64,000 bases of DNA. Origin: Candidatus Poribacteria bacterium (GTDB taxonomy: Bacteria > Poribacteria > WGA-4E > WGA-3G). The notes below the pieces were generated by a model that was not told the origin of the DNA, searched no databases, and saw nothing but the letters and a program-made list of their open reading frames with translations. The stretch covers positions 4,269,987-4,333,986 of the forward strand of contig OZ241980.1 in assembly GCA_965204285.1 (NCBI GenBank), given 5' to 3'. Shown here piece by piece: positions 32,673-57,596 of the stretch. The translations under genes were made by a program, and so were the position numbers. Position 1 is the first letter of the stretch. Every line of letters starts with the position of its first letter.

Positions 32673-35600
32673 TTGATATTTTCAACATATATTGGCTCAA
32701 TACATAAAAAGTCCAAAAGGTTGAATTTGAGACTTACCCAGGTAGGTGGTCTTATTCTTTTTGTGTATATGTTCTTTTTAGGACATCACCAGATGGCAAC
32801 AGCGCAAACTGTTCACATTCCTGACCCAGGTCTCCGCGCTGTTCTTGAATTGGCATTGGATAAAGAGGTAGGTGACGACATCACTCAGGCGGATATGGAG
32901 AGTTTGAAAACACTTCAAGCAGTCAAATCTGGTATTCACGATCTCACAGGTCTTGAGTTCGCAACGAATCTGGAAATCTTAGAGTTTGGACAAAACCAAA
33001 TATCAGATATATCCCCACTTAAAGATTTGATAAAGCTGACAAAACTACGTCTTGGGGACAACCGTGAGATATCAGATGCGTCTCCGCTCAAAAATTTGAC
33101 AAATCTGACGTTCCTGGATATTGATAGTAATCAGGTATCGGATGTGTCTCCGCTCAAAAATTTGATAAATTTGACTTGGTTAGACCTTGACGACAACGGT
33201 ATCTCAGATTTGTCTCCACTTAGCACTTTGACAAAGCTGAGGTACTTGGATCTTGACGGCAACCTTATCTCAGATTTATCTCCACTTAGCACTTTGACAA
33301 ATCTGACATTTCTGGATCTTGATGAAAACGAGATATCAGATTTTTCCATACTCAGTACTTTGATAAACTTGACAGTGCTTGATCTTGAAGGTAACAAGAT
33401 ATCGGATGTGTCCCCCCTCAGCACCTTGATAAATCTGACAGAATTGGATCTACATAACAACAAGATATCGGATGTGTCTCCCCTCAGCAATTTGATAAAC
33501 TTGACAGTGCTTGACCTTCGGGGCAACCAGATATCAGATTTTTCCCCAATCAATGGATTGATAGATAATTTAGTGGAATATTATAACAGCGACCAAACCA
33601 TTCCAACCCATATACCTGAAAATGTGAATCGCGATGGCAACCCAGAACTTGTCCACATTCCAGACCGAGGTCTCCGTACTGCTCTTGAATTCGCATTGAG
33701 CAAAACACCAGTTGAAAACATAACTCAGTCAGATATGGCGAGTTTAAAAGTGCTTCAAGCAAGCAAATGCCGCTATTTAGGATTAGCGGAAGTGGGAGCA
33801 CGAGCGCCAAACCGGTGGGAATGCGGGTTTACTGATGTTACGTCTGGATATAGTATTCAAAATCTAACCGGCCTTGAGTTTGCTACTAATCTGAGAGAGT
33901 TACATCTTGGTCGAAATGAGATATCTGATGTGTCTCCACTCAAAAATTTGACAGAATTAACATACCTTGATCTTGGTAACAACCAGCAAATATCAGATGT
34001 ATCCCCACTCAGAAACTTGACAAATTTGACATTCTTAAACCTTAGATTTAATCGTATATCAGATATATCTCCACTCAAAAATTTGACAAAGCTGATTGAA
34101 CTCGGTCTACGCGGCAATGAATTATCGGATGTGACTCCACTCCGTCCCTTGATAAGCTTGAAGTATCTAAGCGTTAGAGATAATCGTTTATCAGATGTGA
34201 CTCCTTTACGAAACTTGACACAATTGGTAATCCTGAATCTGCGTGAAAATAATATATCAGATGTGACTCCATTCAAAGGTTTGGTGAACTTGACACACCT
34301 TTATCTTAGAGAAAACCAAGTATTGGATGTGTCACCTCTCAGAGATATGATAAATATGAGAGAACTGGACCTTGAAGATAACCAAGTATCAGATGTGACT
34401 CCACTCAGAGATATGACGGAACTGGTATACCTGGATATGGACAGCAACGCAGTACCGGACGTGTCTGCATTAAAAAATATGACAAAACTAAGAATTCTGG
34501 ATTTTTCCGATAACCAGATATCAGATATTTCACCACTCACAGATATGTTATATCTAAGTCGCCTGGATCTTGATGACAATCCAATATTGGATGTGTCACC
34601 TCTCGAAAACTTGACAAGACTGATATGGTTAGATCTGGATGATAACGAGATATTGGATGTGTCACCTCTCAAAAACTTGACAAGACTGACATGGTTAGAT
34701 CTGGATGACAACCAAATATCGGATCTATCTCCGCTTAAAAATTTGATGGAACTGACATACCTGGACCTTGATGGCAACGAGATATCAGATTTATCGCCAC
34801 TCAAAGATATGACAAAACTGGAAGTCTTGGATCTTGATGGTAATAACATATCTGATGTGTCCCCACTCAGTACATTAATAAATCTAATAGAGTTGGATCT
34901 TCACGACAACGAAATATCTGATATATCCGCACTCCAAAATATGACAAATCTGATGGATCTGGATATTGACGACAACCAGATAACTGATGTATCACCTCTG
35001 AAAAATATGATTAAATTAACAATACTTGATGCTGACGGCAACCTGATATTGAATGTGTCCCCACTCAAAGATTTGACAAATCTTACTGAACTGGATCTTC
35101 ACGACAACGAAATATCTGATATATCCGCACTCCAAAATATGACAAAACTCAAAGTGCTTGATCTTCGTGGCAATCAGATATCAGATTTTTCGCCAATCGC
35201 CGGATTGATAGATAATTTAGTAGAATATTATAACAGCAACCAAACATTTCCTGCCTACAAGCGTGAAGATGTGAATCGAGATGGTGTCGTGAATATTACT
35301 GATCTTGTCTTAGCGGCAACTAACTTTGACGATCCTGACTTGACGGTACTTGCTCGGAGAAATCTCTATCCAGATGTTAACAACGACGGTGTTGTGGATA
35401 TCAGAGACTTAGTTCTAATCGCTGCGGAGATAGGTTCGGCTGCTGCTCCAGCACTTAGCAAAAGCTCAATTGAAACATCGAATCTCACTGCCAAAAATCT
35501 CACGCAGTGGATACGGCTTGCCAAGAAACTTGATATGTCCAATCTGCAGATGCAGAAAGGGGTTGCTGTTTTGGAGCAGCTTTTAGCAGTGCTGTCCCAT

Positions 35601-35909
35601 GCAGAGAGGTTACCGAAAGAGACGGCACTATTAATGAACTATCCAAATCCGTTCAACCCAGAGACTTGGATACCTTATCAGCTGGCAAAACCAACAGAGG
35701 TAGTTATTTCTATCCATTCTGTAGATGGGAAGCTTGTTCGGAGGCTGGTGTTAGGGCATTTACCTGTGGGTATATATCGTAGCAAATCTCGCGCTGCACA
35801 TTGGGATGGTCGGAATGAGTCGGGTGAACTTGTGGCAAGTGGTGTCTATTTTTATACACTCACTACTGATAATTTTACGGCTACTCGCAAAATGCTCATT
35901 CAGAAGTAA
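32673..35909 (+). CDS. internalin-like LRR surface protein, in-frame fusion of two paralogous LRR units, with C-terminal dockerin-like pair plus T9SS-type CTD
   Basis: TTG start conserved with paralogs (AAGGGGA RBS). About 33 22-residue LRRs (L..LTNLT.LDL..N.ISDVSPL). A second N-cap (VHIPDRGLRTALEFAL...C...C) at about aa 320. C-terminus DVNRDGVVNITD / DVNNDGVVDIRD then NYPNPFNPETWIPYQL...GVYFYTL. Confidence 0.75.
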   Translation: MIFSTYIGSIHKKSKRLNLRLTQVGGLILFVYMFFLGHHQMATAQTVHIPDPGLRAVLELALDKEVGDDITQADMESLKTLQAVKSGIHDLTGLEFATNLEILEFGQNQISDISPLKDLIKLTKLRLGDNREISDASPLKNLTNLTFLDIDSNQVSDVSPLKNLINLTWLDLDDNGISDLSPLSTLTKLRYLDLDGNLISDLSPLSTLTNLTFLDLDENEISDFSILSTLINLTVLDLEGNKISDVSPLSTLINLTELDLHNNKISDVSPLSNLINLTVLDLRGNQISDFSPINGLIDNLVEYYNSDQTIPTHIPENVNRDGNPELVHIPDRGLRTALEFALSKTPVENITQSDMASLKVLQASKCRYLGLAEVGARAPNRWECGFTDVTSGYSIQNLTGLEFATNLRELHLGRNEISDVSPLKNLTELTYLDLGNNQQISDVSPLRNLTNLTFLNLRFNRISDISPLKNLTKLIELGLRGNELSDVTPLRPLISLKYLSVRDNRLSDVTPLRNLTQLVILNLRENNISDVTPFKGLVNLTHLYLRENQVLDVSPLRDMINMRELDLEDNQVSDVTPLRDMTELVYLDMDSNAVPDVSALKNMTKLRILDFSDNQISDISPLTDMLYLSRLDLDDNPILDVSPLENLTRLIWLDLDDNEILDVSPLKNLTRLTWLDLDDNQISDLSPLKNLMELTYLDLDGNEISDLSPLKDMTKLEVLDLDGNNISDVSPLSTLINLIELDLHDNEISDISALQNMTNLMDLDIDDNQITDVSPLKNMIKLTILDADGNLILNVSPLKDLTNLTELDLHDNEISDISALQNMTKLKVLDLRGNQISDFSPIAGLIDNLVEYYNSNQTFPAYKREDVNRDGVVNITDLVLAATNFDDPDLTVLARRNLYPDVNNDGVVDIRDLVLIAAEIGSAAAPALSKSSIETSNLTAKNLTQWIRLAKKLDMSNLQMQKGVAVLEQLLAVLSHAERLPKETALLMNYPNPFNPETWIPYQLAKPTEVVISIHSVDGKLVRRLVLGHLPVGIYRSKSRAAHWDGRNESGELVASGVYFYTLTTDNFTATRKMLIQK

Positions 35910-36029
35910 GAGATGATTACATCAGGTCTTTTAGTTTGATGTATATGCTGCTTGTTTCTTTCTGAATCCTTGCTTGTAGAAACTTTCAGAATTTCCTGAT
36001 TAACCGAAAACAAAGGAGCAAGAAATATC

Positions 36030-38225
36030 TTGATACTTTTTACATCATATAAAGGATCGCTATCCGAATATTTCTCAAACCGGAATTTAGAATTTACCCG
36101 TGTTGTTATTCTTGTATTTATAGCGTGTGCCTTTTTTGGGGCACCACACCGTATAGCAACCGCACAGACTGTCCACATTCCGGATTCTGATCTTCGCACC
36201 GCTGTTGAGTTAACATTGAACAAAGAGATAGGTGAAGACATCACTCCAGCAGATATGGCAAGTTTGCAAATACTTCAAGCAAGTAACTGTCACTTTTTGA
36301 GGCGATCAGGAGTGCCACGATGGATACCAATACGCCAGAGATGTCCACACAATTTATTAGAATCCCACGTTCAAGACCTAACAGCACTTGAATTCGCAAT
36401 TAATCTGGAAGAGTTACATCTTGCTCATAACCTGATATCTGATGTATCCCCACTCAAAAATATGAAAAAACTGATTGTGTTAGATCTGCACAACAACTTT
36501 ATGATATCTGATGTATCACCACTTAGTGCTTTGACAAATCTTACGCACTTATCTCTTTGGGGCAACCAAGTTTCCGATCCCTCTCCCCTCAGTGTACTAA
36601 AAAACCTCACATATTTATCTCTTGAAAACAATGGAGTATCTGATGTATTCCCACTCAAAGGTTTGACCAACTTGGAGGGACTGGATGTTGAAACCAACCG
36701 AATCTCCGATTTATCCCCGCTCAGAGGTTTGACAAAACTTACGTTCCTTGATTTTGACCAGAATAGAGTATCTGATGTATCACCACTCAAAAACATGACA
36801 GAACTAACACAACTGGATGCATCCGACAACCAGATTTCAGATATATCTCCGCTCAGTGCTATGACAGAAATAACACAGCTGGATATTGACGATAATCAGA
36901 TAATAGATATATCCGCACTCAAAAATATGACAAAAATGTTATGGCTGGATATTGACGGTAACCAGATAATAGGTTTGTCCGCACTCAAAAATATGACAAA
37001 TCTGACAAGGGCGAACATTGATGACAATAACATATCAGATGTGTCCCCACTGGAAAATTTAACAAAATTAGAAAAACTTGATCTTGACCATAACAACATA
37101 TCAGATGTATCACCACTGAAAAATATGGTAAAACTGACATGGTTAGATATTGACGATAACCAGATAATAGATATATCCGCACTCAAAAATATGATAAGGT
37201 TGCAATTGTTGGATTTAGGTGACAATGAAATATTAGATATATCCGCACTCAAAAATATGACGAAATTGACAGAATTAGATCTTAACGACAACGAAATATT
37301 AGATATATCCGCACTCAAAAATATGACAAAACTCAAAGTGCTTGATCTTAACGGCAATCGGATATCAAACATATCCGCACTGAAAAATATGACAAAATTG
37401 ACAGAATTAGATCTTCACGACAACCAGATATCAGATATATCCGCACTCAAAGATTTGACAAATCTCAAAGTGTTGGATCTTCGTGGCAACCATATATCTG
37501 ATTTTTCACCAATCGCAGGATTGATAGATAATTTAGTGGAATATTACAACAGCGACCAAACACTCCCGACCCACAAATTAGAAGATGTGAACCGAGATGG
37601 TATCGTAAATATTACTGATCTTGTTTTAGCCGCATTAAATCTTGACAATCCTGATTTAGCGTCACTCGCTCGGAGAAATCTCTATCCAGATGTTAACAAT
37701 GACGGTGTTGTGGATATCAGGGACTTGGTACTAATCGCTGCAGAGATAGGTTCACCCGCTGCTCCAGCGCTCAGCAAAAACGCGGTTGAAACATCCAACC
37801 TCACTGCTAAAAATCTCACACGGTGGATACGGCTTGCCAAACAGCTTGATACACAAGAGCCGCAAATACAAAGAGGGATTTCTGTTTTAGAACAGTTCTT
37901 AGCAGTTCTGATTGACGTAGAAGTGCCACCAAAAGAGACTGCCCTACTAACCAACTATCCAAATCCGTTCAACCCTGAAACTTGGATACCTTATCAGTTG
38001 GCAAAACCAGCGAAGGTAAATATCTCTATTCATTCTGCGGATGGTAAACTTATTCGTCTGATACCAATGGGGCACTTGCCTGCAGGCACATATCACAGCA
38101 AATCTCGCGCAGCTTATTGGGATGGTCGGAATGACTCAGGTGAGACTGTAGCAAGTGGCGTCTATTTTTATACACTCACTGCAGATGATTTCACCGCTAC
38201 TCAAAAAATGCTAATCCGAAAGTGA
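36030..38225 (+). CDS. internalin-like LRR surface protein with C-terminal dockerin-like pair plus T9SS-type CTD (paralog 2)
   Basis: TTG start and AAAGGAG RBS. Signal peptide and Cys-loop N-cap (NCHFL...RQRCPHN). About 17 LRRs. Same C-terminal module. Confidence 0.75.
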   Translation: MILFTSYKGSLSEYFSNRNLEFTRVVILVFIACAFFGAPHRIATAQTVHIPDSDLRTAVELTLNKEIGEDITPADMASLQILQASNCHFLRRSGVPRWIPIRQRCPHNLLESHVQDLTALEFAINLEELHLAHNLISDVSPLKNMKKLIVLDLHNNFMISDVSPLSALTNLTHLSLWGNQVSDPSPLSVLKNLTYLSLENNGVSDVFPLKGLTNLEGLDVETNRISDLSPLRGLTKLTFLDFDQNRVSDVSPLKNMTELTQLDASDNQISDISPLSAMTEITQLDIDDNQIIDISALKNMTKMLWLDIDGNQIIGLSALKNMTNLTRANIDDNNISDVSPLENLTKLEKLDLDHNNISDVSPLKNMVKLTWLDIDDNQIIDISALKNMIRLQLLDLGDNEILDISALKNMTKLTELDLNDNEILDISALKNMTKLKVLDLNGNRISNISALKNMTKLTELDLHDNQISDISALKDLTNLKVLDLRGNHISDFSPIAGLIDNLVEYYNSDQTLPTHKLEDVNRDGIVNITDLVLAALNLDNPDLASLARRNLYPDVNNDGVVDIRDLVLIAAEIGSPAAPALSKNAVETSNLTAKNLTRWIRLAKQLDTQEPQIQRGISVLEQFLAVLIDVEVPPKETALLTNYPNPFNPETWIPYQLAKPAKVNISIHSADGKLIRLIPMGHLPAGTYHSKSRAAYWDGRNDSGETVASGVYFYTLTADDFTATQKMLIRK

Positions 38226-38342: not shown

Positions 38343-40700
38343 TTGAAACTTTTTACATCATATAAGGTATTACTGTCCAAACCTTTCTCAGACCGGAGTG
38401 TAGAATTTACCCGGATTGTTATTCTTGTTTTTATCGCGGGCATGCTTTTTGGGGCATCACACCCGATAGCAATGGCACAGCCTGTCCACATTCCGGACCC
38501 CGGCCTCCGTGCTGCTCTTGAATTAGCACTGGATAAAGAGATAGGTGAGGACATTACCGAGGCTGAGATGGCGAGTTTGAAAATACTTCAAGCAAGTAAC
38601 TGCCGTTTTTTATGGTTGTCGGAAATAGGACACTGGGCTGTAAATAGGCGATGGATATGTCAGTCTGCTGACGATACGTTGGGAACCGGTGATAATATGT
38701 TTGAATATGATATTCGAGATTTGACGGGCCTTGAGTTTGCTACTAATCTGACAGATCTGCATCTTGGCCGGAATCGGATATCTGATATTTCTCCACTCAA
38801 AGACTTGACAAACTTAACATATCTTGATCTCGGACTCAACCGGAGGATATCGGATGTGTCTCCACTTGAAAACTTAACAAACTTGACACACTTGAATCTA
38901 ACAGGTAATCGGATATCGGATGTGTCTCCACTTAAAAACTTAACAAAACTGGTAGACTTGGATCTCCAATACAATCGGATATCGGATGTGTCTCCACTTG
39001 AAAACTTAACAAACTTGATTTTTTTAGATATCCGCAGCAACCAGATATCAGATATATCTCCACTCAAAAATTTGACAAACTTGACACACCTGAGACTTAA
39101 AGAGAACCAAATATTTGATGTTACCCCGCTCAAAAACTTAACAGACTTATCACACCTTAGTCTTCAATCCAATCAGATATCGGATGTGTCCCAACTCACT
39201 TCCTTGGCAAATTTAGTTTATCTGGATCTTGACAGCAACCAGATATCAGATGTATCTGTGCTCAAGAACTTTAAAGAACTGAGACATCTGGATATTTCTG
39301 ACAACCAAGTATCGGATGTATCTCCCCTCCAAGATCTGATATTCCTGGGACGTCTGGATATTGACGATAACCCTCTATCGGATGTGTTCCCGCTCAGAAA
39401 ATTGACTAACCTTGTATTTTTAGATATTGATGATTGTCAGATATTAGATATTTCTCCTCTCAGAGACTTGATCAGGTTGACAGTTTTAGATCTTGATGAT
39501 AATAAGATATCCGATGTATTTCCTCTCAAGGACTTGACAAGATTGGTAGTTTTGGATCTTGATGGCAATGAATTATCGGATATATCTCCACTTGAAAACT
39601 TGACAAGACTGACAGAACTGGATCTTGATGGTAATCAGATATCGGATGTGTCCCCGCTCAAAGTTTTGAGAAATTTAAAACTACTTGATCTTCACAACAA
39701 CCTGATATCTGATTTGGCGCCACTCAGTGACTTAACAAGACTGGCTTTTCTGGATCTTGACGACAATCAGATATTAGATGTGTCTCCACTCAGAAATTTG
39801 ACAAACTTGACGGAACTGGATCTTGATGGTAATCAGGTATCGGATGTAACACCTCTTAAAGATTTAACAAATCTGACAGTGTTAGACCTCCGCGACAATC
39901 AGATATTAGATGTGTCTCCACTCAACGGTTTGGTAAACCTGAAAATCTTAGATATTAGTGACAACCATATATCTGATTTTTCTCCAATTGCCGGATTGAT
40001 AGATAATTTGGAGGAATATTATAACAGCAACCAAACATTTCCTGCCTACAAGCGGGAAGATGTGAACCGCGATGGTGTCGTGAATATTACTGATCTTGTC
40101 TTAGCAGCAACCAACTTTGACGATCCTGACTTGGGCGCACTTGCCCGGATAAACCTCTATCCAGATGTTAACAACGACGGTGTTGTGGATATTAGAGACC
40201 TGGTCCTTATTGCTGCAGAGATAGGTTCCGCTGCTGCACCTACACTTAGCAAAAATTCCATTATAGCAATAGAGCTCACTGCGAAGGACCTCACGCCGTG
40301 GATTGCTCTCGCAAAACAACTTGACACACAAGATATACAGATACAAAAAGGTATTGCTGTATTGGAGCAGCTTTTAGCTGCCCTTACTCTTTCCGAGATT
40401 TTACCGCGAGAGACAGCCCTGTTAGCGAACTATCCAAATCCGTTCAATCCTGAAACGTGGATACCGTATCAGCTGTCAAAACCGGCAGCGGTTACGATAT
40501 CTATTCATTCTGCGGATGGTAAACTTATTCGCTCATTATATATTGGGCGTTTGTCTGCTGGTATCTATCGTAGCAAATCCCGTGCGGCGTATTGGGATGG
40601 TCGAAATGAGTCGGGTGAACTTGTAGCAAGCGGTGTTTATTTTTATACACTCACTGCGGGTGATTATACTGCAACGAAGAAAATGCTTATCAAAAAGTAA
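38343..40700 (+). CDS. internalin-like LRR surface protein with C-terminal dockerin-like pair plus T9SS-type CTD (paralog 3)
   Basis: TTG start and AGGAG RBS. N-cap NCRFLWLSEIGHWAVNRRWIC. About 22 LRRs. Same C-terminal module. Confidence 0.75.
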   Translation: MKLFTSYKVLLSKPFSDRSVEFTRIVILVFIAGMLFGASHPIAMAQPVHIPDPGLRAALELALDKEIGEDITEAEMASLKILQASNCRFLWLSEIGHWAVNRRWICQSADDTLGTGDNMFEYDIRDLTGLEFATNLTDLHLGRNRISDISPLKDLTNLTYLDLGLNRRISDVSPLENLTNLTHLNLTGNRISDVSPLKNLTKLVDLDLQYNRISDVSPLENLTNLIFLDIRSNQISDISPLKNLTNLTHLRLKENQIFDVTPLKNLTDLSHLSLQSNQISDVSQLTSLANLVYLDLDSNQISDVSVLKNFKELRHLDISDNQVSDVSPLQDLIFLGRLDIDDNPLSDVFPLRKLTNLVFLDIDDCQILDISPLRDLIRLTVLDLDDNKISDVFPLKDLTRLVVLDLDGNELSDISPLENLTRLTELDLDGNQISDVSPLKVLRNLKLLDLHNNLISDLAPLSDLTRLAFLDLDDNQILDVSPLRNLTNLTELDLDGNQVSDVTPLKDLTNLTVLDLRDNQILDVSPLNGLVNLKILDISDNHISDFSPIAGLIDNLEEYYNSNQTFPAYKREDVNRDGVVNITDLVLAATNFDDPDLGALARINLYPDVNNDGVVDIRDLVLIAAEIGSAAAPTLSKNSIIAIELTAKDLTPWIALAKQLDTQDIQIQKGIAVLEQLLAALTLSEILPRETALLANYPNPFNPETWIPYQLSKPAAVTISIHSADGKLIRSLYIGRLSAGIYRSKSRAAYWDGRNESGELVASGVYFYTLTAGDYTATKKMLIKK

Positions 40701-40777
40701 TACCAAATCAGGTAATGCCAAACGGTCTTAATTCTGATAAAAATACCTTTTTAAGTGGCTACACTACAAGGAGCAAA

Positions 40778-44416: not shown

Positions 44417-44445
44417 TTTTCTCCATCTCTGGATTCCAAATTTGC

Positions 44446-45762: not shown

Positions 45763-45829
45763 AGCATATTTTTAGTAGAATTGGACTCAACGATTACATT
45801 GAGGACTCGGTTTAATTCTGGACGAATTT

Positions 45830-46810: not shown

Positions 46811-46853
46811 TACGAAAGTTTCGTGTTAGGTATTTCATTCAAGGAGAGTCAGT

Positions 46854-47759: not shown

Positions 47760-47803
47760 TGCTCAAACCAATAAATACTCCTTATCCGATTAGTATGTGA
47801 AAA

Positions 47804-50772: not shown

Positions 50773-51824
50773 AATTGGATAAAATGCTTTTTGTTGTAGG
50801 GAATAGTCGAAGTGGAACAACAATGATGGGACGTATTTTAGGGAAACATTCTGATGTCTATACTTTTGGCGAACTCCACTTTTTTGGACAGTTATGGTCT
50901 CCTGCATTTTCTTCTGAATTACAAAAACAGAAAGCAGAAAAGTTGGCTTCGCAGCTATTCTGTATTCAACGAGAAGGATACCGGACACACGGCAACCCCA
51001 GTAGTTTTCTGGGAGAATCTCAGAACTTTCTCAATGAATTAACTGAATATCCTACAACACCTGACCGTCTTTTTTCAGCGTTCCTCCAATACGAGGCATC
51101 GCTAAATTGTAAAACGATCCCTTGCGACCAGACACCACGTAATGTGTTTTACATTGAAGACATCCTCCAATTTTATCCACAAGCAAAGATTATTAACATG
51201 ATTCGGGATCCGCGGGATGTACTCCTATCTCAAAAGCAAAAATGGAAACGCCGCTTTCTCGGTGGTAGTGATATGCCAAGAAAAGAGACGTTCCGTGATT
51301 GGATTAACTATCATCCTGTAACGATCAGCCGAATTTGGCATACTGCTGTTACTGCCGGAGATAAATTAGTTGATAGTGAACGAGTTATTTCAATTTACTT
51401 TGAAAAACTTCTTGCACATCCTGAAGCGACAGTCGCTGATGTTTGTGACTTTATAGGTATTGATTACGCTGCTTCAATGTTACAAGTGCCGCAAGTCGGT
51501 TCTTCTGTTAACACAGATAAACCCAATCAACTCGGCATAAATCCGACTCGCACACATAACTGGCACACCAATCACAAAAGTAAAAAAGATTCTGATCTCC
51601 CAACCGAAAGACGAGAATCCCTCAGTTCCACGGAAATTTACATATCCGAAAAAATAAACAGGACGCTGATGGAAAAACATAACTATATTCCTGTTTCAAC
51701 ACGTCCAAACATTTTTAGCTTAGTTGTTAATATCCTCTCATTTCCAATGAAATTAGCGGCAGCTTTCGTTTGTAACCTTGATAGAATGAAAAACATCCGT
51801 GAAACCTTAAAAAGACGTTTATAA
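50769..51824 (+). CDS. sulfotransferase-family protein (PAPS-dependent)
   Basis: VVGNSRSGTTMMGRIL and MIRDPRDVLLS. Confidence 0.65.
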   Translation: MKLDKMLFVVGNSRSGTTMMGRILGKHSDVYTFGELHFFGQLWSPAFSSELQKQKAEKLASQLFCIQREGYRTHGNPSSFLGESQNFLNELTEYPTTPDRLFSAFLQYEASLNCKTIPCDQTPRNVFYIEDILQFYPQAKIINMIRDPRDVLLSQKQKWKRRFLGGSDMPRKETFRDWINYHPVTISRIWHTAVTAGDKLVDSERVISIYFEKLLAHPEATVADVCDFIGIDYAASMLQVPQVGSSVNTDKPNQLGINPTRTHNWHTNHKSKKDSDLPTERRESLSSTEIYISEKINRTLMEKHNYIPVSTRPNIFSLVVNILSFPMKLAAAFVCNLDRMKNIRETLKRRL

Positions 51825-51850
51825 TTCATATATTGACCTGTACGTAGAAC

Positions 51851-52852
51851 ATGATTGCTCAAATTAATTCTGAATATATCACAACGCGTCCAACAAAAGC
51901 GCTAACTCGCCTCATCAGTTATACCTTTTTTGAAGGACGACCTGTGACAACAAAAGGTAGGTGGATAAATCCAGTTGTATTTTCTCTCCTGAAGAAGGCT
52001 GCGAGTAGTAGTAGACGATTCACACCAATTGAGAAACCTATCTTTATTCTTGGGACAGGGCGGAGTGGAACGACAATCTTAGGAATTGTGCTTTCTATGC
52101 ATAAAGATATCGGGTACCTAAATGAACCAAAAGCGATATGGCACCTCATCCATCCACATGAAGACATCATTGGGAATTACAGTCTAAGCCACGCTAAGTA
52201 CCGTCTCAACGCTGAAGATGCAACAGATGAAATGTGTCAACGTGCTGCCCAGATGTTTGGTGCTTATTTGTCATTAACCGGTTCAAAACGTGTCGTTGAT
52301 AAATATCCTGAACTAATCTTCAGGGTTGATTTCGTCCGCGCTCTATTCCCTGATGCGCGGTTTATTTTTCTTGTCCGAAATGGGTGGGATACATGCCGTT
52401 CAATTGCCAACTGGTCAACACGACTCGGTGTTCAAGTCAATGGTGAGAAACACGATTGGTGGGGAGTGGACGACCGTAAATGGAAACTAATAATAGATCA
52501 ACTGGTTACTACCGACGCAGACTTGAAAAACATTGTTGAGGATGTGAAAAATTTTGATCGACACTTAGACAAAGCATCTGTTGAATGGGTATTAACAATG
52601 CGCGAAGGGCTGCATCTAATGCAAAACTTACCTAACTGTACCTACGAAGTTCATTTTGAAAAATTAACATCAAAGCCCCAAGAAGTACTACCACCTCTAT
52701 GCGAATTCTGTGACTTGCTAACAGACAGCACGTTCCTAAATTATGCACAGCATAGCCTAAATCCGGTGCCGCCAAGAGAACCATTTGATTTACATCCGAA
52801 GATAGCACCGATTTTCTATGACACGATGTCAAGATTAGGGTATAATAACTAA
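51851..52852 (+). CDS. sulfotransferase-family protein (PAPS-dependent)
   Basis: ILGTGRSGTTILGIVL and FLVRNGWDTCRS. Confidence 0.6.
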   Translation: MIAQINSEYITTRPTKALTRLISYTFFEGRPVTTKGRWINPVVFSLLKKAASSSRRFTPIEKPIFILGTGRSGTTILGIVLSMHKDIGYLNEPKAIWHLIHPHEDIIGNYSLSHAKYRLNAEDATDEMCQRAAQMFGAYLSLTGSKRVVDKYPELIFRVDFVRALFPDARFIFLVRNGWDTCRSIANWSTRLGVQVNGEKHDWWGVDDRKWKLIIDQLVTTDADLKNIVEDVKNFDRHLDKASVEWVLTMREGLHLMQNLPNCTYEVHFEKLTSKPQEVLPPLCEFCDLLTDSTFLNYAQHSLNPVPPREPFDLHPKIAPIFYDTMSRLGYNN

Positions 52853-52927
52853 GTGGCATTGAAATAAGAGGAGGTTGTCAATGTGAATTATCCACACAAG
52901 TGTATAGTTCACTTGAAAAAGTATAAT

Positions 52928-53452
52928 ATGAGATTTTTGATTCTAATAATGCTTTGCGAATCAGCATTCCTTATCGGGTGCGACCAACGGATGGAACAGT
53001 CCATCATGCAGGTTGTAGTTCCCTCAGAGAGTTCTATAGAAAAAGCAAGATCAGCAATGAAAAAGGTTAATGAAAGACGGACAGAGGCCCAACAAAGGGC
53101 AGAAAAAACAGGTAACTTTTCCACCATACTTACTTCTTCTGAGGACATCTTCAGAGAAGAACTCGGCTTTAGAAAGGGGCTATGGGTTGATTTAGTGGAA
53201 ATATATCGCCAAGAGAATCTGGAAAATGCTACACTATTGGAAGTACTTGAGAACCTACAAGATGCCTTTGCTGAAAAATTAACGGAAGGCACCCTTGGCA
53301 TGTTCTACTTTCAATATATCAGTTCCTTTGATGAAATAATTATTGAATATCTCCGTCTGTCATTTGATTTTCCAGAAAAGAGTGAGAAAGATCTTCTTAC
53401 GCTATTCAGAGAATCTGTGAATGATAGAAAAATTTCCATTGTTTTTCCATAA
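52928..53452 (+). CDS. hypothetical lipoprotein
   Basis: MRFLILIMLCESAFLIGC lipobox. Helical. No motif. Confidence 0.4.
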   Translation: MRFLILIMLCESAFLIGCDQRMEQSIMQVVVPSESSIEKARSAMKKVNERRTEAQQRAEKTGNFSTILTSSEDIFREELGFRKGLWVDLVEIYRQENLENATLLEVLENLQDAFAEKLTEGTLGMFYFQYISSFDEIIIEYLRLSFDFPEKSEKDLLTLFRESVNDRKISIVFP

Positions 53453-53466
53453 GGTTCATTTACATT

Positions 53467-55548
53467 ATGCACGAAACATCTACTGTACAAACACATAAAC
53501 AAGCATCTGAGAAGCGTCCTTTTACCCGACGCGATTTTCTTTCAACCAGCCTAAAAGCCGGTGCAGCGGCTTTCACAACAGCACTTTTACCCAGATTCCG
53601 TGCCGATGCTGCAGGACAATACAATGTGTTGTTTATCATGGTTGACGACCTACGCCCTATGTTAGGCTGCTATGGGCACTCACAGATGCATACGCCTAAC
53701 ATTGATAGACTTGCCCAGCGAGGCACACTTTTCAACCGTGCCTATTGTCAATATCCGCTTTGTAGCCCATCTCGAACCTCTATGATAACTGGGTTGCGCC
53801 CAGAAACAACAGATGTCCTTAATAATTCAGATGATTTTCGGCAGAAATTGCCTGATGTAGTGACACTACCACAGAATTTTAAAAGATACGGATACCATAC
53901 ACAATCTGTCGGTAGAGTTGCCCATCTTCCAAGACTCCAAGATGATGAAAACTCATGGAGTGCTCCGTCATGGAGGCCTACATGGATACCTTTTGACATA
54001 GAGACAACTCCATCTTGGCAGGCACTTGACGTTGAAGACGACGAACTTAGGGATGGAAAAACTGCAAGGCGAGCCGTTCAGGTTTTAGAACAGATTAAAC
54101 ATCAACAATTCTTTCTGACTGTTGGATTTTATAAACCGCATCTTCCCCTGAAAGCACCACGGAAATATTTTGAGTTATACGATACGCAAGACTTTGACTT
54201 ACCCGCTTCTAATATGCCACCTATAGATGCGCCTGAAAGGGCACTCACTAATTGGAGTTCTATCAGAAGATATCAAGATCTACCTGCCGGAACAGAACCA
54301 CTTTCTGACGAGAAAACTTTGGAGTTAACTCAAGCATACGCGGCAGCTACAAGTTACATAGATGCACAAATTGGACGCGTATTAACAAAATTAGATGCTC
54401 TTGGTCTCACTGAAAAAACTGTCATCGTTTTCTGTGGAGATCATGGACATCATCTCGGTGAGCAGGGGATATGGGGCAAGCAAACTTTGTTTGAAGTTTC
54501 GCTCCGTTCACCTCTAATTGTGAGTGTTCCAGGGCAACAGACAGCAGAGACGAATGCCCTATCTGAACTTGTTGACATCTATCCAACGTTGTGTGATGCA
54601 TGTCAACTTCCAATACCTCCACAATTAGAAGGTCTGAGTCTGATGCCAATCATAGAGCAGCCGACACGTCCATGGAAAACCTCTGCCTTTAGTCAATTCG
54701 GTCAAGGAAACTCTATGCGGACAGAACAGTACCGATATACCGAATGGGGAAATAATGGGAGCCTTGGGCTGGAACTTTACGATTATTACACTGACCCGAA
54801 TGAGACAGTCAATATTGCACATCTTCCAGAAAACGAGGAACTTGTTGAACAACTCAGCGAAAAACTGCATGCTGGCTGGCAAGGAGCTCTATCTGATATA
54901 CCGGACCAATTCCATGTTCCACAAACGTTACCGTGGGATATAAACAATGACGGTGTTGTTGATTTCCAAGACCTTGTTTTGATCTCAAGTAATTTTGGTA
55001 CTGAGGCACCTGAAAATCCGAAAGTTGACGTGAATAGAGATGGTAATGTTAACATCATTGATTTGCTCATAGTTGCTGCACATCTCGGTGAATCTACCAA
55101 CACGGGGGCACCTGCAACACAGGCAGAGATTTTCCCAAAACACTTTAGTTTAGTGGATGAATGGCTCACAGAAGCACGTTTAGTGGATGATGGTTCAGAT
55201 GTTTTTAAACTGGGTATCGCTACCTTGGAAGGATTACTTAATATTGTAACTCCAGAAAAAACAGTGCTTTTACCGAACTTCCCGAATCCTTTTAATCCAG
55301 AGACTTGGATACCTTACGATTTAGCACAAGACACGGATGTTCACATCCATATCTTTAATCTGAAGGGCGAATCAATTCGTGAGTTACCACTTGGTTTCCA
55401 AACCGCTGGCACATATAGGTCTCAGGCGCAAGCCGCATATTGGGATGGGCGTAATTCTGAGGGTGAGCTTGTTGCAAATGGAGTTTATTTTTGTACACTC
55501 CACGCGGGACAAACACGAGGAACACGCAAAATGGTAATAAGAAAATAA
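53467..55548 (+). CDS. Tat-signal arylsulfatase-family (Cys-type, C-x-P-x-R) enzyme with C-terminal dockerin-like pair plus T9SS-type CTD
   Basis: TRRDFLSTSLKAGAAAF twin-arginine motif. FIMVDDLRP. Active-site CSPSRTSMITG (53761-53775). GDHGHHLGE. C-terminus DINNDGVVDFQD / DVNRDGNVNIID and NFPNPFNPETWIPYDL...GVYFCTL. Confidence 0.8.
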   Translation: MHETSTVQTHKQASEKRPFTRRDFLSTSLKAGAAAFTTALLPRFRADAAGQYNVLFIMVDDLRPMLGCYGHSQMHTPNIDRLAQRGTLFNRAYCQYPLCSPSRTSMITGLRPETTDVLNNSDDFRQKLPDVVTLPQNFKRYGYHTQSVGRVAHLPRLQDDENSWSAPSWRPTWIPFDIETTPSWQALDVEDDELRDGKTARRAVQVLEQIKHQQFFLTVGFYKPHLPLKAPRKYFELYDTQDFDLPASNMPPIDAPERALTNWSSIRRYQDLPAGTEPLSDEKTLELTQAYAAATSYIDAQIGRVLTKLDALGLTEKTVIVFCGDHGHHLGEQGIWGKQTLFEVSLRSPLIVSVPGQQTAETNALSELVDIYPTLCDACQLPIPPQLEGLSLMPIIEQPTRPWKTSAFSQFGQGNSMRTEQYRYTEWGNNGSLGLELYDYYTDPNETVNIAHLPENEELVEQLSEKLHAGWQGALSDIPDQFHVPQTLPWDINNDGVVDFQDLVLISSNFGTEAPENPKVDVNRDGNVNIIDLLIVAAHLGESTNTGAPATQAEIFPKHFSLVDEWLTEARLVDDGSDVFKLGIATLEGLLNIVTPEKTVLLPNFPNPFNPETWIPYDLAQDTDVHIHIFNLKGESIRELPLGFQTAGTYRSQAQAAYWDGRNSEGELVANGVYFCTLHAGQTRGTRKMVIRK

Positions 55549-55559
55549 GGGAACGGTTT

Positions 55560-57596
55560 ATGAAAAACGATAAGCAACAGAAGACATCTTTTCAACCATT
55601 TACCCGACGGGATTTCCTATCAACAACTTTGAAAGCAGGTGCTGCCGCTTTCACGACAGGACTTTTGCCCAAACTCAAAGCAGACGCTAATTGTCAATAC
55701 AATGTGTTGTTTATCATGGCTGACGACCTACGCCCCCTACTTGGCTGCTACGGATATCCAGAGATGCATACGCCTAACATTGATAGACTTGCCCAGCGAG
55801 GCACACTCTTCAACCGTGCCTATTGCCAATTTCCTGTGTGTAACGCATCCCGGACCTCAATGCTCACTGGGTTAAGACCTGAGACAACAAGGGTGTTTTC
55901 CAATAGAGATAGATTTCGGGAGACGTTACCAAACGCTCTGACGCTCCCACAGCACTTTAAAGCATACGGATATCATACTCAATCGATTGGTAAAATTTTT
56001 CATAATCTTGCAATGCAAGATGACACCTATTCGTGGAGTGTTCCCTCGTGGGGACTGCCGATAACGAATCAGGGACCGTCGCATCCTTCTTGGAAAGCAT
56101 TTGAAGTTGAAGATAGTGAACTTAGTAGTGGTAAAACAGCAAAGCGCGCGATTGAGGTATTGGACGAAATTCAAGATACACAGTTTTTTCTCTCTGTTGG
56201 TTTTCACACACCACATTTACCTTTTTATGCCCCAAAGAGGTATTACGATTTATACAAAAACGAAAACTTCAGTTTTACATCTTCTTCCATCTACCCAAAT
56301 ACGAATATGAGGTTATTCCGAGATATCCCTGATGAAGGCCCTCTCACGGACGCAAAAGCGTTAGAATTAATTCGGGCGTACGCTGCATCAATTAGTTATA
56401 TGGACGCACAAATCGGACGTGTTTTAGACAGGATAGACGCACTCAGCTTGGCAGAAAAAACAGTTGTCATTTTTGCAGGTGACCACGGTTATCATCTTGG
56501 AGAGCATGGCAAATGGGGAAAGAATTATCTTTTTGAAGTTTCCCTCCGATCACCACTGATTGTCAGTGTTCCAGGACAGACATATCAGGGCGTTAAAACG
56601 GATGTCCTCACAGAACTTGTTGACATCTATCCAACATTGTGTGATGCATGTCAACTTCCAATACCTTCACAATTAGAAGGTTTGAGTCTGATGCCCGTCA
56701 TTGATGAACCGACACGTACGTGGAAAACTGCTGCTTTTAGCCAAGTAGGAAGGTCAAACGGGAATTCTATGCGGACAGAACAGTATCGATACACCGAGTG
56801 GGGAAACAATGGAAGACAAGGACAGGAACTTTACGATTATCATACTGACCCGAATGAGACAGTCAATATCGCGAATCTACCAGAAAACAAAGAACTTGTA
56901 GCACACCTCAGAGAACGGCTCCATGCTGGGTGGCAAGCGGCTTTGCCAGATGTACAAGAGCAAGTGCGTGTTCCGCAAACGTTACCATGGGATATAAACA
57001 ACGACGGTGTTGTAGATATTCAGGATCTGATCTTGGTTTCAAACAGTTTTGGGATGGAGACTCCAGAACATACGAAAGCAGATATAAATAAAGATGGAAA
57101 CGTTGATATAATAGATTTATTATATGTCGCATCGCATTTCGGGGAATCTTGCATTGCATCAGCATCCTCGGCATCAGTTTCACAAGAACATGTCAATAGC
57201 ATTTCTGAATGGTTGACTGAAGCACGCCAAGCAGATGACGGTTCTGACGTTTTTCGGCACGGAATTGCGAACTTAGAAGCGCTGTTTAACACCGTAACCC
57301 CTAAAAAAACAACCCTTCTTCCGAATTTTCCAAATCCTTTCAATCCAGAAACTTGGATACCTTATGATTTGGCGAGAGATACAGATGTCAACATTGAGAT
57401 CTATAATCTGAAGGGAGAAATTATTAGAAAGCTAAATATGGGATTACAAACTGCTGGCACCTATCGGAGTAAAACAAATGCAGCACATTGGGATGGACGT
57501 AATTCGGGGGGTGAACTTGTTGCAAGTGGCGTCTATTTTTATTCTCTTAACACTGGTATGGTAAAAGCTATCCGCCGAATGACAATTCTTAAATAA
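55560..57596 (+). CDS. Tat-signal sulfatase-family enzyme with variant C-N-A-S-R active-site motif and C-terminal dockerin-like pair plus T9SS-type CTD
   Basis: TRRDFLSTTLKAGAAAF. FIMADDLRP. CNASRTSMLTG (55839-55853; Ala in place of the canonical Pro). GDHGYHLGE. Same C-terminal module. Confidence 0.8.
   Translation: MKNDKQQKTSFQPFTRRDFLSTTLKAGAAAFTTGLLPKLKADANCQYNVLFIMADDLRPLLGCYGYPEMHTPNIDRLAQRGTLFNRAYCQFPVCNASRTSMLTGLRPETTRVFSNRDRFRETLPNALTLPQHFKAYGYHTQSIGKIFHNLAMQDDTYSWSVPSWGLPITNQGPSHPSWKAFEVEDSELSSGKTAKRAIEVLDEIQDTQFFLSVGFHTPHLPFYAPKRYYDLYKNENFSFTSSSIYPNTNMRLFRDIPDEGPLTDAKALELIRAYAASISYMDAQIGRVLDRIDALSLAEKTVVIFAGDHGYHLGEHGKWGKNYLFEVSLRSPLIVSVPGQTYQGVKTDVLTELVDIYPTLCDACQLPIPSQLEGLSLMPVIDEPTRTWKTAAFSQVGRSNGNSMRTEQYRYTEWGNNGRQGQELYDYHTDPNETVNIANLPENKELVAHLRERLHAGWQAALPDVQEQVRVPQTLPWDINNDGVVDIQDLILVSNSFGMETPEHTKADINKDGNVDIIDLLYVASHFGESCIASASSASVSQEHVNSISEWLTEARQADDGSDVFRHGIANLEALFNTVTPKKTTLLPNFPNPFNPETWIPYDLARDTDVNIEIYNLKGEIIRKLNMGLQTAGTYRSKTNAAHWDGRNSGGELVASGVYFYSLNTGMVKAIRRMTILK

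What the first reader, a model, noticed from the sequence alone, without database searches (positions are those of the whole stretch)
32673..57596. Six secreted proteins share one C-terminal module: dockerin-like EF-hand pair, helical linker and T9SS-type CTD
Three LRR proteins, an FG-GAP/ASPIC protein and two sulfatases all end in the same module of about 230 aa.

Its parts, from the sequences:
- Two dockerin-type Ca-binding repeats (DVNRDGVVNITDLVLAA ... DVNNDGVVDIRDLVLIAAEIG).
- A conserved helical linker (..L.AK.LD....Q.GIAVLEQLLA..).
- A beta-sandwich tail NYPNPFNPETWIPYQLA...V.I.I....GKL.R.L..G.L.AG.Y.S...AA.WDGRN.SGE.VASGVYFYTL......K. This matches my memory of the T9SS type-A C-terminal sorting domain (Por_Secre_tail/TIGR04183-like).

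Fusing a dockerin pair to a T9SS sorting tail is unusual. Dockerins are cellulosome adaptors, whereas T9SS CTDs are cleaved and replaced by a glycolipid anchor. Placing this one module on catalytic (sulfatase) and adhesin-like (LRR, FG-GAP) cargo suggests a dedicated surface-display system.
Basis: partly seen in the sequence, partly recalled or inferred. Interest (0 to 1): 0.8.

Follow-up and report, generated by a model that had tools for sequence, protein, structure and literature searches.

The report
Dockerin–hairpin–sorting-tail module on poribacterial surface proteins
Six exported proteins of an uncultured Poribacteria-type bacterium end in the same three-part tail (a calcium-binding dockerin, a two-helix connector and a type-IX-secretion-style sorting domain), a tail used on thousands of proteins in this phylum, whose export machinery has never been identified.

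Summary
Six + strand genes (three LRR, one FG-GAP/ASPIC, two Tat-signal sulfatases) end in one 207-219 aa module: a dockerin, a two-helix hairpin and a 94-aa beta-sandwich ending in an invariant Lys.

The tail passes NCBIfam TIGR04183 (T9SS type A) in 5 of 6 proteins. It fails Pfam PF18962 in all six and passes FlgD_ig in 4 of 6. By fold it matches both FlgD and genuine T9SS CTDs.

The window is poribacterial. The complete module was found only in Candidatus Poribacteria MAGs, and 6,080 cluster representatives match at E<=1e-30. The tail alone is homologous to CTDs of FCB-type phyla. A similar dockerin-spacer-CTD layout recurs in Gemmatimonadota.

Poribacteria also encode true cohesins, some fused to the same tail, so a cohesin-dockerin surface assembly is plausible.

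No T9SS core gene was found in the window or in about 717 kb of poribacterial DNA. Kamke et al. 2014 had already reported TIGR04183 tails in Poribacteria without Por machinery.

Verdict: a real, abundant, largely undescribed variant of known parts. How it is exported is unresolved. Interest is moderate.

The parts
32673..35909 (+). LRR1: signal-peptide LRR (internalin-like) protein, 1078 aa, carrying the module
   Evidence: N-terminal hydrophobic stretch ending ..MATAQ seen by inspection.
35262..35906 (+). LRR1 module: dockerin 35262-35450, hairpin 35469-35597, CTD 35625-35906
   Evidence: Sub-profile coordinates. Those profiles include the window sequences, so they serve for coordinates only. 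Pfam and NCBIfam hits.
36030..38225 (+). LRR2: LRR protein, 731 aa. Module: dockerin 37578-37766, hairpin 37788-37913, CTD 37941-38222
38343..40700 (+). LRR3: LRR protein, 785 aa. Module: dockerin 40053-40241, hairpin 40260-40388, CTD 40416-40697
40715..43408 (+). FG-GAP/UnbV_ASPIC protein, 897 aa. Module: dockerin 42743-42916, a longer and more divergent hairpin region 42938-43111, CTD 43124-43405
53467..55548 (+). SULF1: sulfatase with a Tat leader (RRDFL) and Cys-type CSPSR motif, 693 aa. Module: dockerin 54931-55104, hairpin 55126-55251, CTD 55264-55545
   Evidence: Structure model.
55560..57596 (+). SULF2: sulfatase with a Tat leader and CNASR motif. The mechanical ORF starts at TTG 55491 and overlaps SULF1; the likely start is ATG 55560. 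Module: dockerin 56985-57158, hairpin 57174-57299, CTD 57312-57593
43421..53452 (+). Context lying between the two cargo groups, not part of the module: a sulfated-polysaccharide locus with an epimerase, a MurJ-like flippase, four sulfotransferases, a Wzy_C-like protein, a GH79-like protein and an unknown lipoprotein
57610..59262 (+). Context: Wzi-like outer-membrane protein directly downstream of the sulfatase pair. The same order is seen in the nearest relative, L081

Best explanation
The window comes from a Candidatus Poribacteria-type genome. The six genes encode proteins that cross the inner membrane by Sec (the LRR and FG-GAP proteins) or Tat (both sulfatases). All six end in a phylum-typical three-part module.

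(1) A type-I-like dockerin with two Ca2+-binding loops, each followed by a helix.

(2) A two-helix hairpin specific to Poribacteria. It follows the dockerin whenever another domain comes after it, so it most likely acts as a spacer or stabiliser for the dockerin.

(3) A 94-aa beta-sandwich homologous to the type A C-terminal sorting domains (CTDs) of FCB-group bacteria. It is always single, always at the extreme C-terminus, and ends in an invariant Lys.

Inferred mechanism: the tail directs transfer across the outer membrane, or attachment to it, in the manner of T9SS cargo. The dockerin then binds cohesin modules that Poribacteria place on other tail-bearing proteins (cohesin+CTD and cohesin+dockerin+CTD). 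Enzymes such as the sulfatases and eukaryote-like binding proteins (LRR, FG-GAP, WD40) would thereby be tied into a cell-surface protein network.

Shown here: the domain identities, the architecture, the distribution and the existence of cohesins in the phylum. Inferred: the export route, any cleavage or anchoring, and actual cohesin-dockerin pairing.
For: Domain calls: Dockerin_1, TIGR04183 and FlgD_ig; dockerin profile against PDB dockerins, E=1.8e-10.

Structure: mean pLDDT 82, with dockerin 1-60, helices 71-87 and 92-108, and beta-sandwich 131-205. Foldseek hits include the PorU and PorZ CTDs and cargo CTDs bound in the SprA translocon.

Fixed C-terminal position: 90 aa from motif to stop in 63 of 68 copies. 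Invariant terminal Lys, matching the one near-invariant, functionally important residue of type A CTDs (PMC10994853).

Distribution: the tail alone is 34-45% identical to tails in Bacteroidota, Ignavibacteriota, Cloacimonadota, Calditrichia, Latescibacterota, KSB1 and Gemmatimonadota; the complete module occurs only in Poribacteria.

Abundance: 5,387 hits at E<=1e-5; 6,080 representatives at E<=1e-30, and in most of the top 150 the match ends exactly at the C-terminus.

Architectures in 38 poribacterial loci: CTD only 31; dockerin+hairpin+CTD 30; dockerin+CTD 7; dockerin only 7; the hairpin never occurs alone. Tandem [dockerin-hairpin]x2+CTD in P0247, and 7-9 dockerins followed by one CTD in P0243, P0244, P0248 and P0259.

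Cohesins: Pfam PF00963 on module proteins, adjacent to the dockerin, with the fold confirmed (all top 50 PDB hits are cohesins, TMt up to 0.79).

Leader peptides: Tat and Sec leaders seen in the sequences.

Precedent: a cohesin scaffoldin with a CTD plus dockerin-bearing enzymes was inferred in Cloacimonadota (PMC8542988).
Against: Pfam's T9SS tail model PF18962 is below its gathering cutoff in all six proteins, and one sulfatase is below the TIGR04183 cutoff.

The best sequence and fold matches among solved structures are the FlgD Ig-like domains, not T9SS CTDs.

The same beta-sandwich family occurs as 12-15 internal tandem repeats in subtilisin-like proteases (P0241, P0242, P0245), so belonging to the family does not by itself imply a sorting function.

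No T9SS core component was found in the window or in about 717 kb of poribacterial loci. FGE-domain lipoproteins score 110-127 bits on GldK against a cutoff of 350. The best PorU and PorZ matches among the 62 CTD-bearing ORFs are to the CTD portion only.

Kamke et al. 2014 found no Por structural genes in poribacterial single-cell genomes, and NCBI does not place Poribacteria in the FCB group.

No cohesin is encoded in this window. No binding or localisation data exist.
Confidence: 0.6

Rival explanations
1. The tail is an ordinary Ig-like (FlgD_ig family) structural or adhesive domain, not a secretion signal. The proteins leave the periplasm by some other route, or stay there. The tail might bind a surface glycan, such as the sulfated polysaccharide made by the neighbouring locus.
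For: FlgD_ig is above the Pfam cutoff in 4 of 6 proteins while PF18962 is below it in 6 of 6. FlgD is the best PDB match by sequence and by fold. The same domain family forms internal tandem arrays in proteases. No T9SS genes were found (PMC3909097). The cargo genes flank a polysaccharide locus with a Wzi-like protein.
Against: In Poribacteria the domain is single and strictly terminal, 90 aa from motif to stop in 63 of 68 copies. It ends in an invariant Lys as type A CTDs do. It passes TIGR04183 in 5 of 6 window proteins, and TIGR04183 matched 57 of the 69 sampled ORFs scanned, 62 of which carry the tail. It sits on very diverse exported cargo, which is the pattern of a sorting tag rather than a functional repeat. 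The same tail is used in phyla reported to have a T9SS.
Confidence: 0.15
2. These are plain T9SS cargo. Poribacteria do possess a canonical, perhaps divergent, T9SS that was missed in the 2014 draft genomes. The dockerin is a non-cellulosomal Ca2+-binding stabilising element with no cohesin partner for these six proteins.
For: The tail is clearly homologous to CTDs of FCB-type phyla. NCBI already names poribacterial homologues 'T9SS type A sorting domain-containing protein'. The 2014 absence rested on incomplete single-cell genomes. No cohesin is present in the window.
Against: No core gene was seen in about 717 kb sampled, although that is only a fraction of one genome's worth of sequence. 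True cohesins are frequent in the same protein family and often sit next to the dockerin. Proteins ending in a dockerin alone, and multi-dockerin proteins, also exist. Both points argue for a working cohesin-dockerin system.
Confidence: 0.2

Closest known systems
T9SS type A C-terminal domains of Bacteroidota cargo (e.g. RgpB, PorU, PorZ, RemZ, NucA; TIGR04183 / PF18962)
   Same: An Ig-like beta-sandwich of about 90 aa at the extreme C-terminus of signal-peptide proteins. A PNP-type motif at its start, a G.Y motif and a near-terminal Lys. TIGR04183 passes in 5 of 6 proteins. Fold matches to the PorU, PorZ, NucA and RemZ CTDs.
   Different: PF18962 is below its cutoff. The N[YF]PNPFNPETWIPY block is far more rigidly conserved than in the other tails seen here. 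The host phylum is outside the FCB group and has no reported T9SS machinery. Two of the cargo proteins use Tat leaders.
Clostridial cellulosome type I dockerin-cohesin pairs
   Same: A duplicated 12-residue Ca2+ loop plus helix. A profile hits cellulosomal dockerins at E=1.8e-10. Poribacterial cohesins have the cohesin fold.
   Different: The setting is Gram-negative. The dockerin is internal, followed by a hairpin and a sorting tail, rather than terminal. The cargo is sulfatases and LRR, WD40 and FG-GAP proteins, not cellulases. Cohesin and dockerin are often on the same polypeptide.
Cellulosome-like system inferred in Ca. Stygibacter (Cloacimonadota), PMC8542988
   Same: It combines cohesin-dockerin modules with a T9SS-type CTD in an uncultured lineage.
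   Different: There the CTD is on the scaffoldin and the dockerins are C-terminal on the enzymes. Here the dockerin and the CTD are fused in one module on each cargo protein, joined by a dedicated helical connector.
TIGR04183-bearing eukaryote-like proteins of Poribacteria (Kamke et al. 2014, PMC3909097)
   Same: The same phylum, the same tail and the same cargo types (WD40, LRR), and the same unresolved lack of Por machinery.
   Different: That report did not describe the dockerin, the hairpin, the cohesins or the modular architectures.
Dockerin-spacer-CTD proteins of Gemmatimonadota (chromosome CP070758.1; P0125, P0126, P0129, P0130, P0132, L066)
   Same: The same order: a dockerin pair, a spacer of about 35-45 aa that looks helical by eye, and a QNYPNPFNP-type CTD. 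At least six paralogues.
   Different: The spacer is not detectably homologous to the poribacterial hairpin: the hairpin profile gives 0 hits even at E<=10.
Type II/III X-dockerin (XDoc) modules
   Same: A dockerin that comes with an obligate companion module (my own knowledge; PDB XDoc entries appear).
   Different: The X module is an Ig-like domain N-terminal to the dockerin. Here the companion is a two-helix hairpin C-terminal to it.

Membership tests
Dockerin type I (PF00404) | Score at or above the Pfam gathering cutoff (22.9 bits) | tested here: met
   24.0, 24.9, 37.5, 40.9 and 36.2 bits pass. LRR3 at 22.4 bits is marginally below.
Dockerin type I (PF00404) | Two duplicated segments, each a 12-residue Ca2+-binding loop (DxNxDGxxxxxD) followed by a helix | tested here: met
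   Two loops per protein, 30 or 35 residues apart. Helices 14-21 and 44-51 in the model. PDB dockerin hit at E=1.8e-10.
Dockerin type I (PF00404) | Ca2+-dependent binding to a cognate cohesin | not testable with these tools
   Cohesins exist in the phylum, but none is in this window. No binding assay or multimer model was possible.
T9SS type A CTD (TIGR04183 / PF18962) | Score at or above the NCBIfam TIGR04183 cutoff (23 bits) | tested here: met
   35.1, 34.8, 36.2, 34.7 and 25.6 bits pass. SULF1 at 18.8 bits fails.
T9SS type A CTD (TIGR04183 / PF18962) | Score at or above the Pfam PF18962 gathering cutoff (27 bits) | tested here: not met
   20.6-24.0 bits in all six proteins.
T9SS type A CTD (TIGR04183 / PF18962) | A single domain at the extreme C-terminus of a protein that has an N-terminal export signal | tested here: met
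   Motif to stop is 90 aa in 6 of 6 window copies. Sec-type or Tat leaders were seen by inspection; no signal-peptide predictor was run.
T9SS type A CTD (TIGR04183 / PF18962) | A seven-stranded Ig-like beta-sandwich fold | tested here: inconclusive
   The model gives a beta-sandwich at 128-205 (pLDDT 85-93), but the first conserved segment, 110-126, has pLDDT below 50. Foldseek: PorU 1e-3, PorZ 1.8e-3, NucA and RemZ CTDs at TMt 0.53-0.58, but FlgD scores better at 8e-5.
T9SS type A CTD (TIGR04183 / PF18962) | A near-invariant Lys close to the C-terminus | tested here: met
   The terminal K is invariant in the six proteins and at least 90% conserved across 52 homologues. The criterion comes from PMC10994853.
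T9SS type A CTD (TIGR04183 / PF18962) | T9SS core machinery (SprA/Sov, PorV, PorU, PorK/L/M/N) in the same genome | tested here: inconclusive
   None in the 64-kb window or in about 717 kb of poribacterial loci. Kamke 2014 found none in draft genomes. A whole closed genome could not be scanned with these tools.
T9SS type A CTD (TIGR04183 / PF18962) | Removal of the tail by PorU and attachment of the cargo to anionic LPS | not testable with these tools
   This needs proteomics or biochemistry.
FlgD hook-cap protein (PF13860 FlgD_ig in its native context) | The FlgD_ig domain embedded in a FlgD protein that also has the FlgD N-terminal region | tested here: not met
   FlgD_ig passes its cutoff in 4 of 6 proteins. 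FlgD equivalog models score only 12-23 bits against cutoffs of 230-383, and the proteins are LRR, FG-GAP and sulfatase proteins.
T9SS type B CTD / CHU_C (PF13585) | Score at or above the gathering cutoff (27 bits) | tested here: not met
   14.6-21.5 bits. No TIGR04131 hit was listed.

The most novel reading that the evidence does not exclude
Poribacteria truly lack the canonical T9SS. In that case this very rigidly conserved tail (N[YF]PNPFNPETWIPY ... K) is read by an undiscovered outer-membrane export or attachment pathway. Together with the fused dockerin-hairpin units and cohesins, it would build a self-assembling protein coat that displays eukaryote-like repeat proteins and sulfatases to the sponge host or to marine particles.
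Probability: 0.25. Interest if true: 0.8.

Novelty: new variant of a known kind. Interest (0 to 1): 0.5.

Why it matters
Poribacteria are dominant sponge symbionts. Their LRR, WD40 and FG-GAP 'eukaryote-like' proteins and their sulfatases are thought to mediate host interaction and breakdown of sulfated glycans. How these proteins reach the cell surface has been an open question since 2014.

This analysis shows that thousands of them share one tail, and that the tail joins a cohesin-dockerin assembly element to a T9SS-style sorting domain. That gives a concrete, testable model for surface display in an uncultured phylum.

Closed poribacterial chromosomes now exist, so the presence or absence of a T9SS can be settled directly. 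If it is absent, the tail points to a new export pathway. If it is present, T9SS and cellulosome-like assembly extend to a phylum outside the FCB group.

Tried and rejected
(1) An exact-protein look-up of a window sulfatase found nothing. The source genome is not in the collection. The nearest relative is a JGI metagenome contig with 88% module identity and the same sulfatase-sulfatase-Wzi order.

(2) I looked for machinery by clustering 489 ORFs from 37 poribacterial loci plus the window. The recurrent neighbours were enolase-family, ABC, LamG, WD40, LRR, GFO/IDH, DUF6785 and FGE-domain proteins, none of which looks like machinery.

(3) FGE-domain lipoproteins next to CTD genes looked like possible PorK/GldK proteins. 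I rejected this: they score 110-127 bits against a cutoff of 350, about the same as they score on EgtB, and no gldLMN genes follow them.

(4) I looked for a PorU or PorZ among the CTD-bearing ORFs using the per-family best E-value. Only CTD-portion hits appeared.

(5) The short 'cohesin+dockerin+CTD' proteins of about 350 aa at first looked like free-standing adaptors. At least one (P0065 in L080) is probably the C-terminal fragment of a larger gene split by an in-frame TGA and a frameshift in a long-read assembly. Many hits of 200-300 aa are similarly truncated gene calls.

(6) The poribacterial hairpin profile found nothing in the Gemmatimonadota modules. The inter-dockerin spacers of P0243, P0244, P0248 and P0259 resemble the hairpin only by eye and fall below my profile's threshold.

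(8) Literature searches for Poribacteria with dockerin, cohesin or T9SS found no description of this module.

(9) A genome-wide T9SS search in Poribacteria was not possible.

Full report
WHAT IS THERE

Pfam assigns LRR repeats to three of them, FG-GAP plus UnbV_ASPIC to one, and Sulfatase plus SGSH_C to two.

Their last 207-219 residues align throughout. Identity is 36-45% between cargo classes, 78-81% among the three LRR paralogues and 66% between the two sulfatases. Fifty-two columns are invariant, including the block N[YF]PNPFNPETWIPY.

That block lies exactly 90 residues before the stop codon in all six proteins. Between cargo classes the tails are only 61-63% identical at DNA level. The conservation is therefore selective and not due to recent duplication or gene conversion. 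The LRR genes, and separately the sulfatase genes, are more recent tandem duplicates. No further copy of the tail or dockerin exists in any frame of the window.

The four LRR and FG-GAP proteins start with hydrophobic Sec-type leaders. Both sulfatases start with twin-arginine leaders (..TRRDFLS..) and carry Cys-type formylglycine motifs, CSPSR and CNASR (read directly from the sequences).

DOMAIN IDENTITIES

Dockerin. Pfam Dockerin_1 passes its cutoff in five proteins and misses by 0.5 bit in the sixth. Each protein has two canonical DxNxDGxxxxxD loops. A 52-sequence profile of the module hits solved cellulosomal dockerins, the best being 2y3n_B at E=1.8e-10.

Tail. NCBIfam TIGR04183 (T9SS type A sorting domain) passes its 23-bit cutoff in five of six proteins, at 35.1, 34.8, 36.2, 34.7 and 25.6 bits; SULF1 scores 18.8. 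Pfam Por_Secre_tail PF18962 is below its 27-bit cutoff in all six (20.6-24.0). Pfam FlgD_ig passes in four. The type B model CHU_C is below its cutoff.

Structure. An AlphaFold2 model of the SULF1 module (mean pLDDT 82) shows four parts:
- a dockerin at residues 1-60;
- a confident two-helix hairpin (71-87 and 92-108);
- a low-confidence stretch at 110-126, which is the invariant NFPNPFNPE segment;
- a confident beta-sandwich at about 128-205.

Foldseek against the PDB ranks FlgD Ig-like domains first (E about 1e-4, 25-27% identity). The CTDs of PorU (6za2) and PorZ (5m11) follow, then the cargo CTDs bound in the SprA-PorV translocon (8glk_D and 8gl8_D, TMt 0.53-0.58). These all share one fold, so structure does not discriminate between them.

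What favours a sorting tail is the context:
- the domain is single and strictly terminal;
- it sits on diverse exported cargo;
- it ends in an invariant Lys. According to the translocon structures, that is the one almost invariant, functionally important residue of type A CTDs, while the other conserved motifs mainly specify the fold (PMC10994853).

WHOSE GENOME, AND HOW COMMON

A search with the SULF1 module found 5,387 proteins at E<=1e-5. Every hit that carries an organism name is from Candidatus Poribacteria, annotated 'dockerin type I domain-containing' or 'T9SS type A sorting domain-containing'.

A scan of one genome per GTDB species returned at least 585 relatives. Matches covering the complete module (residues 1-207) came only from Poribacteria MAGs or from unassigned 'uncultured bacterium' MAGs (L011, L017), never from another named phylum. 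They include several closed chromosomes. The tail alone (residues about 110-207, 34-45% identity) also matched Bacteroidota, Ignavibacteriota, Cloacimonadota, Calditrichia, Latescibacterota, KSB1, Zixibacteria, Marinimicrobia, Krumholzibacteriia and Gemmatimonadota. Those tails have the same layout: QNYPNPFNP.T.I.Y ... WDG ... SG.Y.Y ... KM.L.K.

An exhaustive profile search of 1.84 billion cluster representatives gave 327,708 hits at E<=1e-3 and 6,080 at E<=1e-30. Most of the top 150 match profile positions about 4-216, ending exactly at the C-terminus of proteins 250-2,700 aa long.

The nearest relative of the window is a JGI metagenome contig with 88% module identity and the same sulfatase-sulfatase-Wzi gene order.

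ARCHITECTURES IN THE PHYLUM

I analysed 37 poribacterial loci plus the window: 717 kb and 489 ORFs of at least 120 aa. The counts were:
- 31 proteins with the tail only;
- 30 with dockerin + hairpin + tail;
- 7 with dockerin + tail but no detectable hairpin;
- 7 ending in a dockerin alone.

The hairpin never occurs without its neighbours. P0247 has two tandem dockerin-hairpin units before the tail. P0243, P0244, P0248 and P0259 have 7-9 dockerins, separated by spacers that look helical, followed by one tail. The hairpin therefore belongs with the dockerin and appears when another domain follows it. It is not simply a linker tied to the tail.

Cargo in these proteins is dominated by WD40 propellers (13 of the 31 dockerin+tail proteins), internalin-like LRR, FG-GAP, PD40/TolB-like propellers with S9 peptidase, and Ig-like domains.

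Cohesin domains (PF00963) are frequent. They often sit immediately N-terminal to the dockerin, and they also occur in proteins that have a tail but no dockerin. An AlphaFold2 model of P0068 gives a confident N-terminal beta domain, and all of its top 50 PDB matches are cohesin modules, with TMt up to 0.79. No cohesin is encoded in the window itself.

OUTSIDE PORIBACTERIA

One Gemmatimonadota chromosome encodes at least six paralogues with a dockerin pair, a spacer of about 35-45 residues that looks helical by eye (not predicted here), and the CTD. NCBI names them T9SS type A sorting domain proteins. Cohesin + CTD proteins appear in the same hit list, although their source organisms are not named.

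The poribacterial hairpin profile does not detect the Gemmatimonadota spacer, giving 0 hits even at E<=10. The layout recurs but the connector is lineage-specific.

The beta-sandwich family also occurs as 12-15 internal tandem repeats in subtilisin-like proteases (P0241, P0242, P0245). Family membership alone therefore does not prove a sorting role.

MACHINERY

No T9SS core gene is present in the window. In the sampled poribacterial loci no neighbour family recurs strongly.

FGE-domain lipoproteins sit next to tail-bearing genes in several loci. They score 110-127 bits on the GldK/PorK model against a cutoff of 350, about what they score on EgtB. Among the 62 tail-bearing ORFs, the best PorU and PorZ scores (1.8e-9 and 4e-7) come from the CTD portion only.

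This sample is small, and a full genome could not be scanned.

The literature held in the library has one relevant statement. Kamke et al. 2014 noted TIGR04183 domains on many poribacterial eukaryote-like proteins, especially WD40. [quoted passage not shown] A 2024 paper on the T9SS C-terminal domain states in its introduction that T9SS genes are confined to Bacteroidota and possibly other FCB phyla (PMC11285876). NCBI lists Poribacteria among the candidate phyla, outside the FCB group.

Studied T9SS organisms such as Fibrobacter and rumen Bacteroidetes are reported to lack cohesins and dockerins. The only published parallel I found is an inferred cellulosome-like system in Cloacimonadota, where the scaffoldin carries the CTD (PMC8542988). 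No paper describing the dockerin-hairpin-CTD module was found.

INTERPRETATION

The best-supported reading has two parts. First, the tail is a type-A-CTD-like sorting and attachment signal. Second, the dockerin-hairpin unit ties the cargo into a cohesin-dockerin network on the cell surface.

The domain identities, architectures, distribution and the existence of cohesins are shown by the results above. The export route, any cleavage or anchoring, and cognate cohesin-dockerin binding are inferred.

The six genes flank a sulfated-polysaccharide biosynthesis locus with four sulfotransferases, a MurJ-like flippase, a Wzy_C-like protein, a Wzi-like outer-membrane protein and glycosyltransferases. 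By analogy with attachment of T9SS cargo to anionic LPS, that polymer could be the anchor. This is speculation.

There are two main rivals. One is that the tail is merely a structural or adhesive Ig-like domain. The other is that Poribacteria have an overlooked canonical T9SS and these are plain cargo. The single most decisive step is an HMM scan for T9SS core genes on the closed poribacterial chromosomes now available.

VERDICT

The tail itself was already known in this phylum. The fusion is common rather than rare, and public annotation already labels the individual domains.

What appears to be undescribed:
- the three-part module and its lineage-specific hairpin;
- its coupling to true cohesins, including multi-dockerin and cohesin-dockerin-tail proteins;
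- the scale at which it is used.

I rate it a new variant of known kinds, of moderate interest. The interest would rise considerably if Poribacteria prove to lack a T9SS.

Noticed in passing
window 43421-53452, 57610-60538, 30246-31448: A sulfated-polysaccharide biosynthesis locus: an epimerase, a MurJ-like flippase, four sulfotransferases (45830, 46854, 50769, 51851), a Wzy_C-like membrane protein, a GH79-like protein, a Wzi-like outer-membrane protein and two GT4 glycosyltransferases. The six module genes flank it. The sulfatase-sulfatase-Wzi order is conserved in the nearest relative, L081.
   Followed up: partly
window 53467-53600 and 55560-55700: Both sulfatases that carry the T9SS-type tail have twin-arginine (Tat) leaders (RRDFL). 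Their formylglycine motifs are CSPSR and CNASR. I did not check whether Tat leaders have been reported on CTD-bearing cargo.
   Followed up: no
window 55491-55560: The mechanical ORF of the second sulfatase starts at TTG 55491 and overlaps the first sulfatase by 58 nt. The probable true start is ATG 55560 (MKNDKQQ..), 12 nt after the upstream stop.
   Followed up: partly
window 52883-53452: A 189-aa ORF with a lipoprotein-like leader (..LIGCDQ) and no Pfam hit, directly upstream of the sulfatase pair.
   Followed up: no
window 10066-17613 (- strand): A cluster comprising a DUF6785/DUF6784 membrane protein, a 655-aa protein with POTRA domains but no recognised barrel family, a BatA/VWA protein, and a transglutaminase/DUF3108 protein. 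DUF6785 proteins recur in 3 of the sampled poribacterial loci near tail-bearing genes.
   Followed up: partly
window 25239-29264: A Hen1 methyltransferase and Pnkp (kinase-phosphatase-ligase) RNA repair gene pair. Homologues were seen in one other poribacterial locus.
   Followed up: no
window 2183-5993: A corrinoid methyltransferase set: a B12-binding protein, a RACo-type reductive activator and a homocysteine S-methyltransferase-like protein.
   Followed up: no
window 31836-32486: A small secreted protein with a lamin-tail domain (LTD) and an Asp/Thr/Met-rich low-complexity N-terminal region, immediately upstream of the first LRR gene.
   Followed up: no
L080 7926-11056: A pectate-lyase-like piece, a DUF4955/lectin-like piece and a cohesin-dockerin-hairpin-tail piece are separated by one frameshift and one in-frame TGA. 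This is probably one large gene broken by long-read assembly errors, and it warns that many short 'module-only' database proteins are truncated gene calls.
   Followed up: partly
P0243, P0244, P0248, P0259 (database proteins, poribacterial-type tail): Proteins of about 1,000-1,100 aa made of 7-9 tandem dockerins with spacers that look helical, followed by a single sorting tail. This is the inverse of a scaffoldin: a multi-dockerin connector.
   Followed up: partly
P0241, P0242, P0245 (database proteins): Subtilisin-like proteases with 12-15 internal tandem copies of the same FlgD_ig/CTD-like beta-sandwich (PDPF.P ... WDG ... G.Y.Y) and no terminal K motif. This shows that the fold family is also used as an ordinary repeat.
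   Followed up: partly
L007 13211-14032, L019 13722-14903, L018 13562-15376, L022 6825-7475: Lipoproteins adjacent to tail-bearing genes in several poribacterial loci; those in L007, L018 and L019 carry an FGE-sulfatase domain, whereas L022 showed none in the NCBIfam scan. They are not PorK/GldK by score. Their role (sulfatase maturation in the periplasm, or something else) is unknown.
   Followed up: partly
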